Shown: positions 35,844 to 44,948 of the stretch, piece by piece
Layout: each line of letters begins with the position of its first letter
Numbering within the stretch: position 1 is the first letter of the stretch
Virus record (IMG/VR): IMGVR_UViG_3300033463_000200
Reading direction: 5' to 3' (one strand)
Source of the DNA: a virus
DNA length: 51,552 bases
The notes under the pieces: generated by a model
What the model was told of the DNA's origin: nothing
What the model saw: the letters and a program-made list of their open reading frames with translations, nothing else
Databases searched by the model: none
Position numbers and translations under genes: made by a program

Positions 35844-36230
35844 ATATTATACCATAAAATTAATAAGATGTCAAATCCTCCCCCTCCGTGCGAAGCACAA
35901 AATGTATTGCTCAGCAACCGCGGGTTGCTCCTAGGTCTGGACCTTGATGCCATATAGCGAACACCGTCGTCTCGGTCTGGATCAGGTGGCCCTATGAGAG
36001 CTTCCCTCGGTCAATATCAGCGCGCACTGCATCTCTGCATCACTTCACCGCGGTGAAGTGTAACACTGTAACGCGGTGACGCGTTACCACTGCACCAGAC
36101 TAAAGCGGAAAGTGTCCCCCTGTTATTATACCACACTGGAACCCGCCTGTCCATTGGCATTTTGCACAAAAATTTCGGGAAAATTATTGATTTTTTTGTG
36201 CAATTTTTTTTGAGAAAAAATTTGACATTG

Positions 36231-36249
36231 ATAGAATTTTGTGGTATAA
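36231..36249 (+). promoter_or_regulatory. Plus-strand consensus promoter of a promoter-hairpin cassette. A TTGCACAAA..TTTGTGCAA operator-like inverted repeat lies upstream.
   Basis: TTGACA-17-TGGTATAAT, followed by GC hairpins (GGCGC..GCGCC and AATGCGG..CCGCATT). Confidence 0.55.
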
Positions 36250-36341
36250 TTCGGCGCTCACCGAAGGCTCGCGCCCCGGCCAAATTGACTGAATATTCTG
36301 ATAATAGATCCAGACAAAGAAAATGCGGACCAGCGCCCGCA

Positions 36342-36563
36342 TTATTCAATATAAGAATCATAGATTATAATGTGAACGCTAGCATTTTCTAAAAGCGGAA
36401 CATCCTCTTCTCTGAACCCATCCCAAAATTCTACCTCGTTAACAGAAAAATCATTCGGCTCTATTACTAAAGAGGGATGAATACTTATAATGTCATCTAC
36501 CTCTTTAATTTCTTTGAATGTATACCAATAATCATCGCTTGCTTTTGTTATGATAGCTAACAT
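36342..36563 (-). CDS. Hypothetical protein (73 aa).
   Basis: ORF track. Confidence 0.35.
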   Translation of the reverse strand: MLAIITKASDDYWYTFKEIKEVDDIISIHPSLVIEPNDFSVNEVEFWDGFREEDVPLLENASVHIIIYDSYIE

Positions 36564-36597
36564 TTTAATCCCCTTTCAATAAACGACCTTTTCAATT

Positions 36598-36837
36598 TTA
36601 ATAATTTTCTGTTTCGTCTGCATGGACGAGTTTGCCAAAAAGTTCGCACAGGTCTTTGAATTCATCGGGATCATCTGCGAAGAATTCAAAATCATCTTCA
36701 TAAGGCTCATCTGGAATAGCATCCCGCATCCAGATTTCAAAGATTTCTTCGTCACCAGTGTTCATTATGTAATCGTGCATCTGATGAACCAGACTAAGAC
36801 GAGTTTTTCTCATTTCTTCTCTTGTTATTACCATCAT
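36598..36837 (-). CDS. Acidic hypothetical protein (79 aa).
   Basis: ORF track. Confidence 0.4.
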   Translation of the reverse strand: MMVITREEMRKTRLSLVHQMHDYIMNTGDEEIFEIWMRDAIPDEPYEDDFEFFADDPDEFKDLCELFGKLVHADETENY

Positions 36838-36864
36838 TGTTTTGTTCTCCTTTCTTTTGATAGT

Positions 36865-37050
36865 CTAATTATAGCACCATTCATTCAATCTGTCAAGCAT
36901 TTTTTGAGATTCTTTCAGATATTTGTATTTTCTATTTTCTTCGCACCAGGGACAACCACCATGATTTCTACAAGACCTAGCAATAGATTTGCTTCCAGAA
37001 TAAGGTTTTCTATGTTCTTTTCCAGAGCGGATTCCTTTATCTAAAGACAT
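36865..37050 (-). CDS. Small basic zinc-binding protein (CPWC motif).
   Basis: ORF track. Confidence 0.35.
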   Translation of the reverse strand: MSLDKGIRSGKEHRKPYSGSKSIARSCRNHGGCPWCEENRKYKYLKESQKMLDRLNEWCYN

Positions 37051-37186
37051 CTTTTCATCTTCCTTTCTCTTGCTTTTTTTCTTTTCTTTAATTGTATTAT
37101 ATCAAAAAATAATGGGAAAGTCAAGATAGTGATTTTTACCAAAAAATCGTAGCAAATTTTGTTGATTCTACCTATTGACATGATTT

Positions 37187-37255
37187 TCGCCGCGGCCCGG
37201 AGGACCGCGGCCCACCATTATACCACAAGATTTTAATAATGTCAATATCGGAATA
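37187..37255 (-). promoter_or_regulatory. Minus-strand consensus promoter (TTGACA-17-TGGTATAAT) followed by the GC palindrome GCCGCGGCCCGGAGGACCGCGGC. The same palindrome occurs again at 40017-40040.
   Basis: The reverse complement was read directly. Confidence 0.55.
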
Positions 37256-37518
37256 ATGCACAAAAAAAGTGAGCCATTTGGCTCACTTTTCATCAATTTT
37301 ACTTAAAAATGTCTAGTGTAATAAAGTAAATGCTTGGCTTTGCCCTCCCATTCTCTGAATTTCTGCGGGGTCCCAGTTAAATAATCTGACTTTGTAGGTC
37401 TCTGCGTCCCATTGTCCTACAATTTCGCCTCTATCTCCTAGAATTGTCTAAATTTTATCGCCAATTTTGAACATTTTGTTACCTCTGGGGCAGAGGTGTT
37501 ACCCTCTGCCCCTCTTTC

Positions 37519-37860
37519 TCAGGCTACCGAGAAGTAAGCCTTCTTACCCTCGATAGTCTTAACCACAAGCCCCTTTTCAACCATCTGGCGAAGGAGCGCG
37601 GAAACCTTCTGGTTGGTGAAACCGTCCAGTCCCTCATGGGAGATGAGTTCAGTGACAGTCATCTTCTCACCGACGTCCGCAAGGACATCATAGATCAGAT
37701 CCTTCACCTTCTCATTTTCCTTCTGAGTCTTTGTCAGACCCTTTCCAGACTTCCTGTTGTCCAGGAGTTCAATCTCATGCTTGATGAAAGCCACCATTTC
37801 CTCGTTTGCCTTAACCTCAGCTACCTCTGCGATTGCGTTGAACATTTCTCTCTTTGTCAT
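37519..37860 (-). CDS. Winged-helix-like small protein, paralogue A (113 aa). Candidate regulator.
   Basis: RBS GAAAGGAAG precedes ATG. About 60% identical to the 39355..39708 product (MTKREMF...NRKSGKGLTKTQK...GLDG.TNQK.SALLR...VVKTIEGKKA.FS.A). Own promoter at about 37890-37930. Confidence 0.5.
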   Translation of the reverse strand: MTKREMFNAIAEVAEVKANEEMVAFIKHEIELLDNRKSGKGLTKTQKENEKVKDLIYDVLADVGEKMTVTELISHEGLDGFTNQKVSALLRQMVEKGLVVKTIEGKKAYFSVA

Positions 37861-42869: not shown

Positions 42870-43061
42870 TTAAATTAGATTTAATATTGTTAAAATTATT
42901 ATTAAGGGAATAGCAGAAACAAACATGAAAATAACTCCATAACAAGGTTTATGTTCGTCCATATTGTCCATCATCCAAAATATTCCAAAAGGGGAAACCA
43001 TAAAAATATCAAACGCAATAATAACAATAGCAATAAGACGTAAAATAATTAACATTTTCAT
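42870..43061 (-). CDS. Small membrane protein (63 aa).
   Basis: ORF track. Hydrophobic. Confidence 0.35.
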   Translation of the reverse strand: MKMLIILRLIAIVIIAFDIFMVSPFGIFWMMDNMDEHKPCYGVIFMFVSAIPLIIILTILNLI

Positions 43062-43142
43062 CTTCCTTTCCTTTCGTTTTCTTAATTATATCATATATTT
43101 TTATTTTTGTCAACAGGTTTCTTTTGATATCACAGGGATTTT

Positions 43143-43598
43143 TTACATCCCTGCGATAATTTTTTCATTTGTGAAGGTTGCCGACTCATATTTAATCTGG
43201 TAAGCGATTCCCTCGATCTCGATATCTCCGGCTTCTGTAAAAGGGATGCTGTCTTTTGTCCAGACCTGCCCGAATTTTTCAGTAACCATCTTCTCGAAGA
43301 TTTCACCTTTGTTGTATTTGCTTTCGGCTACGGTCTCTTCGAAGAATTCCTTGGAACAAAGAACCTCAGCACCTTTGGAGAGGAGCAGAACTTTCTGAGT
43401 CACTGTCGGTTTGAAGCGGAGGCTATATCCAGCCCCACGGCTTGCCTTGTCCAGCTTTAAGATGTAGGGCATGATTTCGGCGGTAGCCTTGACCATATAG
43501 ACCACGTTCTGGAAATGGAAGCCATAGATATAATTGTGAGTAAAGGACTTCTCGTTATATTTCTGAATCAGGTTTTCAAATACGACTGTCTTGTTCAT
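43143..43598 (-). CDS. Hypothetical protein (151 aa).
   Basis: ORF track. Confidence 0.45.
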   Translation of the reverse strand: MNKTVVFENLIQKYNEKSFTHNYIYGFHFQNVVYMVKATAEIMPYILKLDKASRGAGYSLRFKPTVTQKVLLLSKGAEVLCSKEFFEETVAESKYNKGEIFEKMVTEKFGQVWTKDSIPFTEAGDIEIEGIAYQIKYESATFTNEKIIAGM

Positions 43599-43792
43599 TG
43601 TTTGTTCCTCCTTATCTCTATCTGTATACTATTATAGCAGATATGCCGGAGAAAACAATCGGCATTTTATACAAAATTTAATGTCTGAATTATACAAAAT
43701 GACCAAAGTTTTAGAGGGGAGTGAGAGAAAATTTTTTGTGCAAAACGTAGAAATTTGGGATCAGATTTCCTGAATCTTTGTGCATTTTTCCT

Positions 43793-43821
43793 CTTGACTT
43801 TTTGGCTGGCGTGTGGTATAA
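43793..43821 (+). promoter_or_regulatory. Plus-strand consensus promoter of a cassette.
   Basis: Hairpin 1 at 43829-43865. Bidirectional terminator at 43875-43902 (AGGAGCAAG..CTTGCTCCT then TTTT). Confidence 0.55.
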
Positions 43822-43888
43822 TGGATTCTCGGGCCGCGCCGGAGTCTGGGCGGAGGTGCGCGGCCCAACGAAAAAAGGAGCAAGTTTT

Positions 43889-44107
43889 TCACTTGCTCCT
43901 TTTCATCTTTCTCTTTTCTGCTCTTTTTGCAATCCTTGCCAGGCGGATCGCCTTTTCTTTTTCAGTTTCCATCGGCTTCTCATCAATCACAACATCCTTG
44001 TAAGTGTTATACGGAAGTTCTTTCTTCCAATCCTCTGCCTCTCTGTAAGTCTTGACGGTTTTTACATACATATTTCTGAAATAACATTCATAAACTAAAG
44101 CTCTCAT
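43889..44107 (-). CDS. Basic hypothetical protein (72 aa).
   Basis: ORF track. Confidence 0.35.
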   Translation of the reverse strand: MRALVYECYFRNMYVKTVKTYREAEDWKKELPYNTYKDVVIDEKPMETEKEKAIRLARIAKRAEKRKMKRSK

Positions 44108-44164
44108 TTTTTTTCTTCCTTTCTTTTGTCGGTCTGTTGATTGATTCCCTATACCAGAGAGCCT

Positions 44165-44371
44165 TTAAGCGGCTCTCTGGAAGTATTTGACCATGATAAC
44201 AGGAATGCTATAATCGCTTGCTACAAACCACACCGATTCGGTTTTGATTGCCTTATGGAACTTATCCTCAAGTTTCATATCCTCAAGCCATGTCTGAAAG
44301 TCGGTTATGCTGATTTTATAGGCTTCTTTATCGGCTTCCATCTCCTGCAGATATTCTTTTTCAGTTCTCAT
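44165..44371 (-). CDS. Hypothetical protein (68 aa).
   Basis: ORF track. Confidence 0.35.
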   Translation of the reverse strand: MRTEKEYLQEMEADKEAYKISITDFQTWLEDMKLEDKFHKAIKTESVWFVASDYSIPVIMVKYFQRAA

Positions 44372-44408
44372 TGTTTTACGTTCCTTTCTTCTTTATCCTA
44401 TGAGCGGA

Positions 44409-44636
44409 TTAAATCCGCTCATAGATGGTGATGGTGGTTTTTACTAAGGGATATTTGTAAGCGATGAAATCATCACCAGAGTCTACTTTTTCGCTTCTGA
44501 AATTCCAAAAAAGAATTTCCAGTTCTGCGATTTCATCATCGGTTTTTGCGAAAACGACGATATTGTTTTTCCCTACTTCTACATAATTGTCGGTAACTCT
44601 TTTTACATCGTTTACCAAGACTTCTTCTCTTGTCAT
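44409..44636 (-). CDS. Hypothetical protein (75 aa).
   Basis: ORF track. Perfect 11-bp hairpin at 44396-44423. Confidence 0.35.
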   Translation of the reverse strand: MTREEVLVNDVKRVTDNYVEVGKNNIVVFAKTDDEIAELEILFWNFRSEKVDSGDDFIAYKYPLVKTTITIYERI

Positions 44637-44948
44637 TGTTCTTTCCTCACTTTCTCGTGTGCCTTTGTCTTATTGACAAGGTCATTGTACTACATCTGTT
44701 TTCAAAAAACAAGGGTAAAATAAACAAAATGAAGCGAGTCTTTTATACAGATTGTACAAACTTATTTTTTTCATTGTTTACTTTTTACAAAAGAAGATCT
44801 GGAAAATGATCGGTTTTTGTGCAAAACATACTAAAGTATTTTTGCACAAAAACTGTCGTTGTTCATTGGTTATTTTGATGATCTTTGTTAGTCAAAACGT
44901 AGAATTTTAGGATTATTTTAGTCTTTATCTTTGTGCATTTTTCCAATA

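What the first reader, a model, noticed from the sequence alone, without database searches (positions are those of the whole stretch)
36161..44940. Shared operator-like inverted repeat (ATTGCACnAA ...22 nt... TTTGTGCA) positioned just upstream of the -35 of each cassette promoter
Upstream of the cassette promoters at 36161-36205, 38224-38268, 39063-39100, 39925-39965, 41431-41500, 42417-42462, 43738-43785 and 44818-44935 lie half-sites TTGCAC(A/T)AA and TTTGTGCA(A/T). They are separated by a conserved spacer (AATTTCGGGAT(C/A)AGATT). In several units a second palindrome CAATATCGGAATATTG is also present. This points to one DNA-binding regulator controlling the whole cassette regulon. The two paralogous winged-helix-like proteins (37519-37860 and 39355-39708) are candidate binders.
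Basis: seen in the sequence. Interest (0 to 1): 0.6.

Follow-up and report, generated by a model that had tools for sequence, protein, structure and literature searches.

The report
Back-to-back promoters sharing TTTGTGCA element
The apparent inverted repeat is two copies of an 8-base promoter add-on (TTTGTGCA), one in front of each of two back-to-back promoters in a phage early-gene region; ordinary genes of gut and rumen Clostridia carry the same add-on, so it looks like a host-style promoter signal rather than a phage repressor site.

Summary
The half-sites are real and far from chance: TTTGTGCA occurs 18 times against 2.1 expected, 16 of them between 36 and 45 kb. They are not one dyad operator. 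Each copy lies 9-11 nt (or 18-20 nt, one helical turn further) upstream of its own -35. The "inverted repeat" arises because two promoters sit back to back.

The left copy serves a '-' strand promoter that drives the cassette genes. The right copy serves a '+' strand promoter that runs antisense and starts at a GC-rich hairpin.

The composite TTTGTGCA-N9-TTGAC-N17/18-TATAAT recurs in over 100 related phage contigs with strict phasing: gap 9 gives 112 stretches, gap 14 gives 0, gap 19 gives 35. It also occurs as a single, unpaired element in front of chromosomal genes of Oscillospiraceae, Ruminococcus and Lachnospiraceae (acpP, T-box leaders, MATE pumps). Eight unselected acpP orthologue clusters all keep it.

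Best reading: a host-lineage upstream promoter element that the phage uses for early promoters. The two paralogues do have a winged-helix fold, but nothing links them to this motif. The conserved spacer AATTYCGGGAW is phage-specific and position-locked. It is the better candidate for a phage regulator site. The function of the hairpin units is unresolved.

The parts
36125..36170 (-). Node 1, '-' strand promoter: TTTGTGCA (36163-36170), 9-nt gap, TGGACA, 17-nt spacer, TGTGGTATAAT. It leads into a GC-rich non-coding stretch.
36171..36250 (+). Node 1, '+' side: AATTTCGGGAA (36171-36181), then TTTGTGCA (36195-36202), 19-nt gap, TTGACA (36222), 17-nt spacer, TATAAT (36245). A weak hairpin follows at 36253-36275.
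37186..37264 (-). A '-' strand copy of the hairpin unit: TTTGTGCA (37257-37264), 11-nt gap, TTGACA, 17-nt spacer, TATAAT (37217-37222), then a 10-bp GC hairpin (37186-37212).
38185..38231 (-). Node 2, '-' strand promoter: TTAGTGCA, 10-nt gap, TTGATT, 17-nt spacer, TATAAT. It is the outermost promoter of the WH1 cassette (gene 37519-37860).
38230..38336 (+). Node 2, '+' side: AATTTCGGGAT (38230-38240), then TTTGTGCA (38256-38263), 9-nt gap, TTGACA, 18-nt spacer, TATAAT (38297-38302), then a 10-bp GC hairpin (38310-38336). The unit is antisense to gene 38362-38670.
39024..39069 (-). Node 3, '-' strand promoter: ATTGTGCA, 9-nt gap, TTGATT, 17-nt spacer, TATAAT. It is followed by a conserved 190-nt leader and gene 38615-38812.
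39067..39172 (+). Node 3, '+' side: AATTATGGGAT, then TTTGTGTA (39084-39091), 18-nt gap, TTGACA, 18-nt spacer, TATAAT (39134-39139), then an 11-bp GC hairpin (39148-39172).
39890..39937 (-). Node 4, '-' strand promoter: TTAGTGCA, 11-nt gap, TTGATT, 17-nt spacer, TATAAT. It is the outermost promoter of the WH2 cassette (gene 39355-39708 plus tRNA-Lys). It contains the 'second palindrome' CAATATCGGAATATTG.
39936..40044 (+). Node 4, '+' side: AATTATGGGAA, then TTTGTGCA (39952-39959, 19-nt gap) plus a proximal TTTTTGCA (39963-39970, 8-nt gap), then TTGACA, 18-nt spacer, TATAAT (40003-40008), then a GC hairpin (40015-40044).
40046..40093 (-). Convergent '-' strand promoter that shares the node-4 hairpin: TTTGTGCA, 11-nt gap, TTGACA, 17-nt spacer, TATAAT.
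41393..41438 (-). Node 5, '-' strand promoter of the exonuclease-like gene (40672-41361): TTTGTGCA, 9-nt gap, TTGCAA, 17-nt spacer, TACAAT.
41478..41586 (+). Node 5, '+' side: a second TGCACAAA copy (41478-41485), AAAATCGGGAT, then TTTGTTCA (41510-41517), 9-nt gap, TTGACT, 17-nt spacer, TATAAT (41550-41555), then a 10-bp GC hairpin (41564-41586).
42378..42425 (-). Node 6, '-' strand promoter of the HAD-like gene (41895-42344): TTTGTGCA, 11-nt gap, TTGACG, 17-nt spacer, TATACT. It contains CAATATCGGAATATTG.
42424..42530 (+). Node 6, '+' side: AATTTCGGGAT, then TTTGTGCA (42450-42457), 9-nt gap, TTGACT, 17-nt spacer, TATAAT (42490-42495), then a GC hairpin (42504-42530).
43631..43675 (-). Node 7, degenerate '-' strand promoter of gene 43143-43598: TTTGTATA (43668-43675), 9-nt gap, TTGTTT, spacer, TATAAT.
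   Evidence: read directly from the sequence
43735..43866 (+). Node 7, '+' side: an extra TTTGTGCA in direct orientation (43735-43742), AAATTTGGGAT, then TTTGTGCA (43777-43784), 9-nt gap, TTGACT, 17-nt spacer, TATAAT (43817-43822), then a 9-bp-stem GC hairpin (43831-43866).
44816..44978 (+). Node 8: a head-to-head TTTGTGCA pair (44816-44823 '+', 44843-44850 '-'), AATTTTAGGAT (44903-44913), then TTTGTGCA (44930-44937), 11-nt gap, TTGACA, 18-nt spacer, TATAAT (44973-44978). It leads into a GC-rich stretch and then an AT-rich repeat field.
35846..35901 (-). Outlying '-' strand promoter with TTTGTGCT, 19-nt gap, TTGACA, 17-nt spacer, TATAAT.
37519..37860 (-). WH1, 113 aa. The model has an N-terminal helical part and a C-terminal winged helix. 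The nearest promoters (37937, 38032) lack the motif.
39355..39708 (-). WH2, 117 aa, a paralogue of WH1 (61% identity). The nearest promoter (39788) lacks the motif.

Best explanation
TTTGTGCA (degenerate form TTTGT[G/T/A][C/T]A) is an orientation-specific upstream promoter element. It lies 9-11 nt, or one helical turn further at 18-20 nt, 5' of the -35 hexamer of sigma-A-type promoters. That places it at roughly -54 to -46 relative to the start site.

It is a cis element of the host lineage, Clostridia of the Oscillospiraceae/Ruminococcus/Lachnospiraceae kind. This phage family copies it for one class of promoters in a hyperplastic region of small early-type genes.

Inferred mechanism: the element is contacted by the host transcription machinery. 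The most likely contact is the alpha C-terminal domains of RNA polymerase, alone or with a lineage-specific accessory factor. This helps recruit polymerase right after infection.

Each intergenic node of the region holds two such promoters back to back. One, on the '-' strand, drives the gene cassette. The other, on the '+' strand, starts at a GC-rich hairpin and runs antisense into the 3' end of the neighbouring cassette. Because the promoters diverge, their two elements face each other and imitate an inverted-repeat operator, with a centre-to-centre distance of 33 bp, or 22-25 bp in some nodes.

What is shown: the geometry, the phasing, the conservation, and the occurrence in host genomes. 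What is inferred: that these are active promoters, that they are early, and what binds the element.
For: **In the window.**
- TTTGTGCA occurs 18 times against 2.1 expected.
- Composites of element + -35 + -10 (element with at most 1 mismatch) occur only between 35846 and 44978. There are 8 on '+' and 8 on '-'.
- The '-' strand copies sit 25-27 nt of leader plus ribosome-binding site ahead of the HAD-like and exonuclease-like genes.

**In the 56 relatives found by protein homology, plus the window.**
- Of 180 non-redundant hairpin promoters, 72 carry the element (at most 1 mismatch) at gaps 9-11 and 27 at gaps 18-20. None carry it at gaps 12-17.
- A best-of-five test gave 97 of 180 with at most 1 mismatch, against 0 of 180 at control gaps.
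- Of 302 exact TTTGTGCA sites, 162 have a -35 at the phased gaps. Composition-matched control words occur only 8-42 times.

**Across the whole viral collection.** Gap 9 gives 112 stretches, gap 14 gives 0, and gap 19 gives 35.

**In bacterial genomes.**
- The exact composite is in at least 120 stretches, nearly all from Clostridia.
- About 85 of these are chromosomal-looking loci (GC 40-65%, a single site). They lie in front of acpP, MATE pumps, a DivIVA-like gene, serC, pfkB and T-box leaders, with several species per gene and unrelated flanks.
- The T-box leaders were confirmed by Rfam immediately downstream of the promoter.
- In these host sites there is no partner half-site, and nothing else upstream is conserved.

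**Unbiased test on acpP.** Loci of 8 other protein clusters were fetched by protein identity alone. At gap 9 they carry TTTGTGCA (4), TTTGTTTA (3) or TTTATTCA (1). This is the same degeneracy spectrum as in the phage.

**Tandem copies.** Gap-19 units carry a second, degenerate copy at gap 8. Two tandem sites about 11 bp apart fit two alpha C-terminal domains.
Against: - No transcription start sites, binding data or expression data exist for this phage or its hosts.
- The core GTGCA is not A/T-rich, unlike classical UP elements.
- Within the window the element is confined to one 9-kb region. Other consensus promoters lack it (19097, 31039, 32563/32568, 49200/49211). This is more typical of a regulon mark than of a general strength element.
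It is selected, its statistical excess over chance could not be computed, and no spacing control was possible in that collection.
- The unbiased test covers only one gene family.
- About 20 of the 120 genome hits are phage-like contigs binned into metagenome-assembled genomes (MAGs).
- The whole 140-bp module is conserved, including the promoter spacer. Conservation within phages alone therefore cannot separate function from common descent.
Confidence: 0.6

Rival explanations
1. Operator for a phage-encoded regulator. A dimeric phage protein, for example the WH1/WH2 winged-helix paralogues, binds the TTGCACAAA...TTTGTGCAA pair. It switches all cassette promoters on or off together. The host copies would then be sites the phage protein also targets, for host takeover.
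For: - The motif marks a discrete promoter class confined to 35.8-45 kb.
- In phage nodes the two copies keep integral-turn spacings: the partner sits at gap 41-42 in 57 of 180 hairpin promoters and at gap 30-31 in 40 gene promoters.
- WH1/WH2 have a confident winged-helix fold.
- They belong to a family of 545+ members that sits in the same regions.
- Enterococcus phage H1 lacks both the motif and the family.
Against: - Every half-site has its own -35 at a fixed distance, which by itself explains the pairing.
- Host promoters carry a single unpaired copy. They keep it across species in front of housekeeping genes.
- Unit 7 has direct, not inverted, copies.
- Co-location of WH genes with the motif is no greater than for the exonuclease or HAD genes.
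- Loci L046, L050, L051 and L056 have motif-bearing hairpin promoters but no WH homologue within 10 kb.
Confidence: 0.13
2. Binding site of a switchable host transcription factor. This could be a global regulator, or an Spx-like factor that binds the alpha C-terminal domain. In that case the phage's motif promoters would respond to the host's physiological state rather than being constitutively strong.
For: - Only a subset of host and phage promoters carry the element.
- The core ends in TGCA, close to the AGCA element at -45 to -42 that the Spx-alpha-CTD complex needs in Bacillus subtilis (PMC3479203, PMC12242773).
- The element is single and orientation-specific, as an RNA-polymerase-tethered factor would require.
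Against: - The downstream host genes form no coherent physiological regulon: acpP, MATE pumps, serC, pfkB, DivIVA-like, T-box leaders.
- The element lies 3 nt further from the -35 than the Spx AGCA motif.
- No candidate factor was identified or tested.
Confidence: 0.17
3. No binding function. The half-sites are conserved only because the whole ~140-bp promoter/hairpin module is a repeated recombination cassette, like the PeSL cassettes (early promoter plus stem-loop) of T4-type phages. Duplication and gene conversion would keep it homogeneous.
For: - Modules match several module copies in each relative at 73-83% DNA identity, more than the coding genes (66-71%).
- The promoter spacer and the 9-nt gap are conserved too.
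- Gene content between conserved genes differs among relatives.
Against: - The element is kept at the same distance in host chromosomal promoters whose flanks are unrelated to the phage module.
- It also precedes phage gene promoters that lack the hairpin (57 at gaps 9-11).
- It moves by exactly one helical turn and never by half a turn.
Confidence: 0.07

Closest known systems
UP element (alpha-CTD-binding upstream promoter element of sigma-70/sigma-A promoters)
   Same: It lies on the same strand and in fixed register between about -60 and -40. It is orientation-specific and needs no partner site. It tolerates a shift by one helical turn, and tandem proximal and distal copies occur. It is associated with consensus -35/-10 promoters of phage early regions and of housekeeping genes.
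   Different: The conserved core GTGCA is not A/T-rich. It is restricted to one bacterial lineage and its phages. It is used by only a subset of strong promoters. Alpha-CTD binding was not tested. (UP element properties are from general knowledge; an A-rich UP-like region is reported for a Lachnospiraceae species in PMC5171806.)
Spx-type extended -35 (AGCA at -45 to -42, read by the Spx-alpha-CTD complex in Bacillus subtilis)
   Same: A short G/C-containing element ending in GCA sits just upstream of a sigma-A -35. It is single, orientation-specific, and found at a subset of promoters (PMC3479203, PMC12242773).
   Different: Here the element is 8 nt long (TTTGTGCA), with 9 nt rather than about 6 nt between it and the -35. 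The downstream genes are not a thiol-stress regulon. No Spx homologue was examined.
PeSL cassettes of T4-type phages (early promoter plus stem-loop; PMC2839356, PMC4122927)
   Same: These are repeated ~100-bp composite promoter/stem-loop modules. They are concentrated in a hyperplastic region of small orphan genes, they flank variable cassettes, and they are better conserved than the genes.
   Different: In PeSLs the stem-loop is a terminator placed at or before the promoter, and the unit is co-oriented with the downstream gene. Here the hairpin follows the promoter at about +1, has no U-tract, and the unit points against the genes. Here the node is bidirectional. Recombination products were not examined.
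phi29 A2b/A2c-A3 divergent promoter switch controlled by protein p4 (general knowledge)
   Same: There are divergent promoters with regulator sites between them and helically phased sites.
   Different: p4 sites are true inverted repeats bound by a phage protein. No such dependence is shown here, and the main motif also occurs in host genomes.

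Membership tests
Dyad (palindromic) operator of a dimeric regulator | The two half-sites occur together, at a spacing that does not depend on the promoters. | tested here: not met
   In 83 host promoters the element is single, with no partner at any preferred offset. In the window the spacing between half-sites varies (14 to 25 nt). Unit 7 has direct copies.
Dyad (palindromic) operator of a dimeric regulator | The site position is defined relative to one regulated promoter. A half-site does not have a promoter of its own. 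| tested here: not met
   Each half-site has its own -35/-10 at 9-11 or 18-20 nt, on its own strand.
Dyad (palindromic) operator of a dimeric regulator | A cognate DNA-binding protein exists that recognises the site. | not testable with these tools
   WH1/WH2 have a winged-helix fold. Binding cannot be tested here, and co-location with the motif is non-specific.
UP-element-like upstream promoter element | Fixed register upstream of the -35 on the promoter strand, between about -60 and -40. | tested here: met
   Gaps are 9-11 or 18-20 only: 99 of 180 hairpin promoters, none at gaps 12-17. Collection-wide counts are 112, 0 and 35 stretches for gaps 9, 14 and 19.
UP-element-like upstream promoter element | Present at chromosomal promoters of the host, independent of phage. 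| tested here: met
   Host loci with acpP, T-box leaders, MATE pumps and others. All 8 unselected acpP orthologue clusters keep the element.
UP-element-like upstream promoter element | A/T-rich sequence read by the alpha C-terminal domain in the minor groove. | tested here: inconclusive
   TTT and the final A are nearly invariant, and positions 6-7 drift to T/A. G4 is kept in 135 of 161 sites, and G6/C7 predominate.
UP-element-like upstream promoter element | Stimulates transcription through the alpha C-terminal domain. | not testable with these tools
   This needs in-vitro transcription with wild-type and alpha-CTD-deleted polymerase.
Spx-type AGCA extended -35 | AGCA at -45 to -42, about 6 nt upstream of the -35. 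| tested here: not met
   Here TGCA ends 9 nt (sometimes 10-11) upstream of the -35. Definition taken from PMC12242773.
Spx-type AGCA extended -35 | Dependence on Spx or a paralogue. | not tested
   No host proteome was examined.
PeSL (T4-type promoter/stem-loop cassette) | [quoted passage not shown] | tested here: met
   There are 8 '+' units plus '-' copies within 9 kb of small genes without family matches. There are 180 units in 57 genomes.
PeSL (T4-type promoter/stem-loop cassette) | The stem-loop acts as a terminator for upstream transcription, and the promoter is co-oriented with and directly precedes the downstream gene. | tested here: not met
   The hairpin starts 8 nt after the -10, has no U-tract, and the unit is antisense to all neighbouring genes.
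PeSL (T4-type promoter/stem-loop cassette) | Indels between close relatives are bounded by the modules; mini-circles form. | not tested
   Only distant relatives were available (66-83% DNA identity). Gene content between conserved genes does differ.
Winged-helix transcription regulators (for WH1/WH2) | A helix-turn-helix with a beta-hairpin wing. | tested here: met
   The AlphaFold2 model has pLDDT 90.4, with H44-63, H69-72, H83-95 and strands 99-104/107-112. Foldseek matches ArsR/SmtB, MarR, AspA and Z-alpha at rmsd 1.3-2 A over about 60 residues, with E-values of 3e-3 and above. There is no Pfam hit; PHROG hits are weak.

The most novel reading that the evidence does not exclude
Each node is a bidirectional switch. 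The phage-specific element A(A/T)TT(A/T)(C/T)GGGA(A/T) lies exactly 32-33 nt upstream of the antisense promoter's -35, between the two host-type TTTGTGCA promoters. In this reading a phage regulator binds it, possibly the WH1/WH2 family, one paralogue per state. The regulator would toggle polymerase from the sense cassette promoter to the antisense promoter. The very stable 5'-hairpin antisense RNAs would then shut off every early cassette at once. That would be a phi29-p4-like switch combined with lambda-OOP-like antisense RNAs, repeated at every cassette and conserved from rumen phages to Enterococcus phages.
Probability: 0.12. Interest if true: 0.75.

Novelty: new variant of a known kind. 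Interest (0 to 1): 0.45.

Why it matters
**If the main reading holds.** TTTGTGCA-N9-TTGACA would be a lineage-specific extension of the sigma-A promoter in Oscillospiraceae, Ruminococcus and Lachnospiraceae. These are abundant gut and rumen bacteria whose promoter architecture is barely characterised and for which genetic tools are scarce.
- The element could improve promoter prediction and synthetic promoter design in these bacteria.
- It could serve as a host-lineage signature for assigning uncultured phages to Clostridia hosts.

**For the phage.** This reading redraws the region. The promoters that drive the cassettes are the '-' strand ones. A conserved class of antisense promoter-hairpin units, of unknown function, sits at every cassette boundary in a large family of 100-200 kb phages.

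**If the reading fails.** If the element proves to be a phage-regulator site after all, the host copies would be candidate targets of host takeover.

Tried and rejected
1. **DNA similarity to cultured phages.** A near-identity search with the 9-kb region found nothing.
2. **Known RNA families.** Rfam at both gathering and E-value thresholds returned only tRNAs, tmRNA and ROOL elsewhere in the window. Nothing matched the hairpins or the GC-rich leaders.
3. **Consensus folding of the hairpins.** RNAalifold on a MAFFT alignment failed, partly because one of the seven sequences was entered with wrong coordinates; the stems also differ in sequence and the loops in length. I relied on per-sequence folds instead. 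The z-scores are modest (-0.5 to -4) because GC-rich shuffles also fold. The argument rests on the fixed position and on the 156 distinct sequences.
4. **The 246-nt GC-rich stretch at 35875-36120.** It does not fold better than shuffles (z = -1.2).
5. **Literature search for the motif string.** The results were irrelevant. Searches for promoter studies in these bacteria found only an A-rich UP-like region in Clostridium phytofermentans.
6. **Other known binding sites.** I compared the motif from memory with the CodY, Rex, CRP/FNR, DnaA-box and IHF consensus sequences. None fits.
7. **Chi-like reading of the hairpin promoter spacers.** The GC-rich spacer (GCTGGCGG) resembles a Chi site. I noted this and did not pursue it.
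8. **Co-occurrence of WH genes with the motif.** This does not discriminate, because all early-region genes co-locate equally.
9. **AATTWYGGGAW counted alone in the window.** With one mismatch it is not above chance (17 against 16.9). Its significance comes only from its fixed position in the relatives.

Full report
**What the window is.** The 51.5-kb window is part of a large phage-like genome.
- It carries 23 tRNA genes, among them a suppressor with anticodon CTA, plus a tmRNA and a ROOL RNA, all on the '-' strand.
- It has no close DNA relative among cultured phages.
- An exonuclease-like protein at 40672-41361 has 43% identical homologues in ~140-kb Enterococcus phages. It has 44-78% identical homologues in 56 uncultured viral contigs of up to ~200 kb.
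- Between 36 and 45 kb all plausible genes are small and lie on the '-' strand. Most have no family match. The exceptions are a HAD-like phosphatase and the exonuclease-like protein.

- TTGTGCA occurs 20 times against 5.7 expected.
- The 8-mer TTTGTGCA occurs 18 times against 2.1 expected, with no shuffle reaching 18. Sixteen of the 18 lie between 36163 and 44937.
- The spacer core AATT(T/A)(C/T)GGGA(A/T) is in every unit.
- CAATATCGGAATATTG is present twice exactly and twice with one mismatch.
- Details differ from the description. The gap between half-sites is 24-25 nt in units 1, 2 and 6 and 14 nt in units 3 and 4. Units 3 and 5 have degenerate right halves. Unit 7 has two direct copies. 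Unit 8 has three copies.

**What the half-sites are attached to.** I scanned both strands for -35/-10 pairs and then for element + -35 + -10 composites. Every half-site has its own promoter.
- On the '+' strand TTTGTGCA lies 9, 11 or 18-19 nt upstream of TTGAC(A/T)-N17/18-TATAAT at 36222, 38273, 39110, 39979, 41527, 42467, 43794 and 44949.
- The left half-sites read as the same element on the '-' strand. They lie 9-11 nt (19 nt at 35874) upstream of '-' strand promoters at 35874, 37245, 38213, 39052, 39918, 40074, 41421 and 42406. Weaker versions are at 36153 and 43658.
- The 'second palindrome' is the '-' strand -35 (TTGAY, read as RTCAA on '+') plus the 11-nt gap and the A/T part of the element.
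- The '-' strand promoters are the ones that drive the cassettes. Those at 42406 and 41421 are followed after about 25 nt by a ribosome-binding site and the start codons of the HAD-like and exonuclease-like genes.
- The '+' strand promoters point against every gene of the region.
- Eight nt after the -10 of units 2-7, and of the '-' strand copy at 37186-37264, a perfect 9-11-bp GC-rich hairpin of different sequence begins. It has no U-tract. The reversed terminator of the convergent gene follows it. Units 1 and 8 have weaker, different structures.
- Seven further consensus promoters of the region, directly upstream of genes, have no element. Consensus promoters elsewhere in the window also lack it.

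**Conservation in related phages.** I analysed the window plus the 56 protein-defined relatives, so this set is not biased by the motif.
- Of 180 non-redundant hairpin promoters, the element (at most 1 mismatch) sits at gaps 9-11 in 72, at gaps 18-20 in 27, and at gaps 12-17 in none.
- A best-of-five-positions test gave 97 of 180 with at most one mismatch, against 0 of 180 at control positions.
- The tolerated variants are TTTGTTTA, TTTGTACA, TTTGTATA and TTTGTGTA.
- The same element at the same gaps precedes 57 promoters that are followed by ordinary leaders.
- Of 302 exact TTTGTGCA sites, 162 have a -35 at the phased gaps. Composition-matched control words are 7- to 38-fold rarer.
- Across the whole viral collection, the exact composite with gap 9 is in 112 stretches, with gap 14 in none, and with gap 19 in 35.
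- Gap-19 units carry a second, degenerate copy at gap 8.
- This pattern is strict helical phasing. It is what is expected of a site whose occupant must touch RNA polymerase from one face of the DNA.

**The decisive result: the element is not phage-specific.** Nearly all are Clostridia: Oscillospiraceae, Oscillibacter, Acutalibacteraceae, Lachnospiraceae, Ruminococcus flavefaciens ATCC 19208 and SAb67, and R. albus 8.
- About 20 of these are phage-like contigs binned into MAGs.
- About 85 are chromosomal-looking: GC 40-65%, one site per 8 kb, ordinary genes downstream.
- Several gene families recur across species with unrelated flanking sequence: acyl carrier protein (6), MATE efflux pumps (9), a DivIVA-like protein (7), serC-like (3), pfkB (2), and a leader in Oscillibacter (8).
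- Rfam confirms that leader as a T-box, starting right after the promoter.
- In these host sites nothing upstream of the element is conserved, and there is no partner half-site at any preferred distance.

**An unbiased check on the host result.** The host list was selected by the pattern, so I ran an independent test.
- I collected homologues of the acyl carrier protein.
- I fetched loci of eight other protein clusters by protein identity alone. All lie in a chromosomal context between a XerC/D-type recombinase gene and holo-ACP synthase or cytidylate kinase.
- All eight have, exactly 9 nt upstream of TTGAC(A/T), one of TTTGTGCA (4), TTTGTTTA (3) or TTTATTCA (1). Their further flanks are diverged.
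- Two of the eight are near-identical to seed loci. Six are independent.

**Interpretation.** The element is best described as a host-lineage upstream promoter element that the phage copies.
- The apparent inverted repeat is the geometric consequence of placing two such promoters back to back.
- What contacts the element is inferred, not shown. Its position (about -54 to -46), its orientation specificity, its independence of a partner, the one-turn shift and the tandem copies fit the two alpha C-terminal domains of RNA polymerase. So does drift of the G/C positions towards T/A.
- The conserved GTGCA core, and the use of the element by only a subset of promoters, argue for a sequence-specific accessory factor instead. 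One known precedent is the AGCA element at -45 to -42 read by the Spx-alpha-CTD complex in Bacillus subtilis (PMC3479203, PMC12242773). The register here differs by 3 nt, so this is an analogy and not membership.
- I found no description of this element. A start-site study of a Lachnospiraceae species reports only an A-rich UP-like region (PMC5171806). The literature searches were limited.

**The candidate binders.**
- WH1 and WH2 are 61% identical paralogues of a family with more than 545 members. The family has no Pfam domain and no member in cultured phages.
- The AlphaFold2 model is confident (pLDDT 90.4). Its C-terminal 60 residues superpose on ArsR/SmtB, MarR, AspA and Z-alpha winged helices at 1.3-2 A. 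'Winged-helix-like' is therefore correct.
- Homologues occur in 66 of the 112 loci that were seeded only by the DNA motif. The exonuclease (66) and HAD (63) genes occur as often, so this reflects a shared region and not a specific link.
- Some relatives have motif-bearing promoters without a WH homologue within 10 kb.
- Both WH genes are served by motif-less promoters, with a motif promoter further upstream.

**What remains phage-specific.** The conserved spacer is real and position-locked.
- Of 146 non-redundant copies of A(A/T)TT(A/T)(C/T)GGGA(A/T) in the window and relatives, 73 lie exactly 32-33 nt upstream of a -35. Fifty-nine of the 82 copies that have a promoter within 70 nt precede hairpin promoters.
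- This holds whichever gap TTTGTGCA occupies.
- The spacer is absent from the host promoters.
- A variant (TTTTGGGAT, TTTTAGGAT) lies 43-44 nt upstream of the two antisense promoter-hairpin units of Enterococcus phage H1. That phage has neither TTGTGCA nor the WH family.
- This is the better candidate for a phage regulator site.

**Module conservation and the hairpins.**
- The ~140-bp modules are more conserved between genomes (73-83% DNA identity, each matching several copies) than the coding genes (66-71%). Gene content between conserved genes differs among relatives.
- This resembles the promoter/stem-loop (PeSL) cassettes of T4-type phages (PMC2839356, PMC4122927). The orientation and the order of promoter and stem-loop are different.
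- The role of the hairpin units is unresolved. Possibilities are a stable antisense RNA, an insulator against read-through, or a recombination module.

**Verdict.**
- The operator interpretation is only partly right. There is a shared promoter-class mark, but it is not a dyad operator, and it does not need the phage's winged-helix proteins and is not specifically linked to them.
- It is a new variant of a known kind of element, an upstream promoter element. It is of moderate interest.
- There is an open and more unusual question attached: the antisense hairpin units and the phage-specific GGGA element.

Noticed in passing
window 38303-38342, 39140-39179, 40009-40048, 41556-41595, 42496-42535, 43823-43870 ('+'); 37181-37216 ('-'): Strong consensus promoters are followed 8 nt after the -10 by perfect 9-11-bp GC hairpins. 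Each hairpin has a different sequence and none has a U-tract. All point against the neighbouring genes. There are 180 such units, with 156 distinct hairpin sequences, in the window plus 56 relatives, and two in Enterococcus phage H1. Their function is unknown.
   Followed up: partly
window 39979-40008 ('+') and 40046-40074 ('-'), hairpin 40015-40044: Two complete convergent promoters face each other across a single GC hairpin. Similar convergent arrangements recur in relatives, for example L046 and L018.
   Followed up: no
window 38841-39023, '-' strand: A ~190-nt non-coding leader lies between the promoter at 39024-39069 and gene 38615-38812. It is the best-conserved DNA of the region across relatives, at 75-85% identity (L001 9745-9886, L005 6261-6421, L006 6421-6574, L038 8898-9049). 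It is a candidate structured RNA with no Rfam match.
   Followed up: no
window 35875-36120 and 38020-38170, '-' strand; 44985-45050, '+' strand: GC-rich non-coding stretches lie downstream of motif promoters. The first does not fold better than shuffles (z = -1.2). None has an Rfam match.
   Followed up: partly
window 45055-46000: This is an AT-rich field with 4-5 copies of TTTGTTATGTTAATAACTTAACAC. Its core TGTTAAGTTAATAACTTAACA is a true 21-bp palindrome. Long AT-rich inverted repeats lie at 45368-45447. It looks like an iteron or operator array, or an origin or terminus, right after the last '+' promoter.
   Followed up: no
window 14042-23111 and 39244-39317: There are 23 tRNA genes, including a suppressor with anticodon CTA (16782-16857). 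A tmRNA lies at 16937-17166 and a ROOL RNA at 17978-18603 (276 bits). All are on the '-' strand. The suppressor hints at TAG recoding in part of the genome.
   Followed up: no
hairpin promoter spacers, e.g. window 38279-38296, 39116-39133, 42473-42489, 43800-43816: The 17-18-nt spacer of the antisense promoters is GC-rich and conserved across relatives (AAAAnGCTGGCGGyrTGG). The spacer of the gene promoters is AT-rich. The GCTGGCGG core resembles a Chi-type motif.
   Followed up: no
L169 (Enterococcus phage H1, OP534061) 1500-9800: This is a co-oriented array of about 20 small genes. In many of them a terminator-like stem overlaps the -35 of the next promoter (for example GGGGTTGACAACCCC), which is a PeSL-like layout. 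There are two antisense promoter-hairpin units at locus positions 10126 and 6936.
   Followed up: partly
L201, L217 (Treponema MAG), L233 (Methanobrevibacter MAG), L230 (Muribaculaceae MAG), L223, L172: Contigs carrying the phage-type cassettes (motif promoters, GC hairpins, WH-family genes) are binned into MAGs of unrelated taxa. This is probably mis-binned phage DNA.
   Followed up: no
host loci L171, L177, L196, L204, L213, L216, L256, L262: MATE efflux genes of Lachnospiraceae and Oscillospiraceae are preceded by the motif promoter. A conserved hairpin plus U-tract leader follows (ACGTGTGGCACTCGATGCGTAAATCCAGTTGAGTGCCGCACGTTTTTT). This looks like an attenuator. Rfam found no match at gathering threshold in the three loci tested (L177, L216, L262).
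   Followed up: partly
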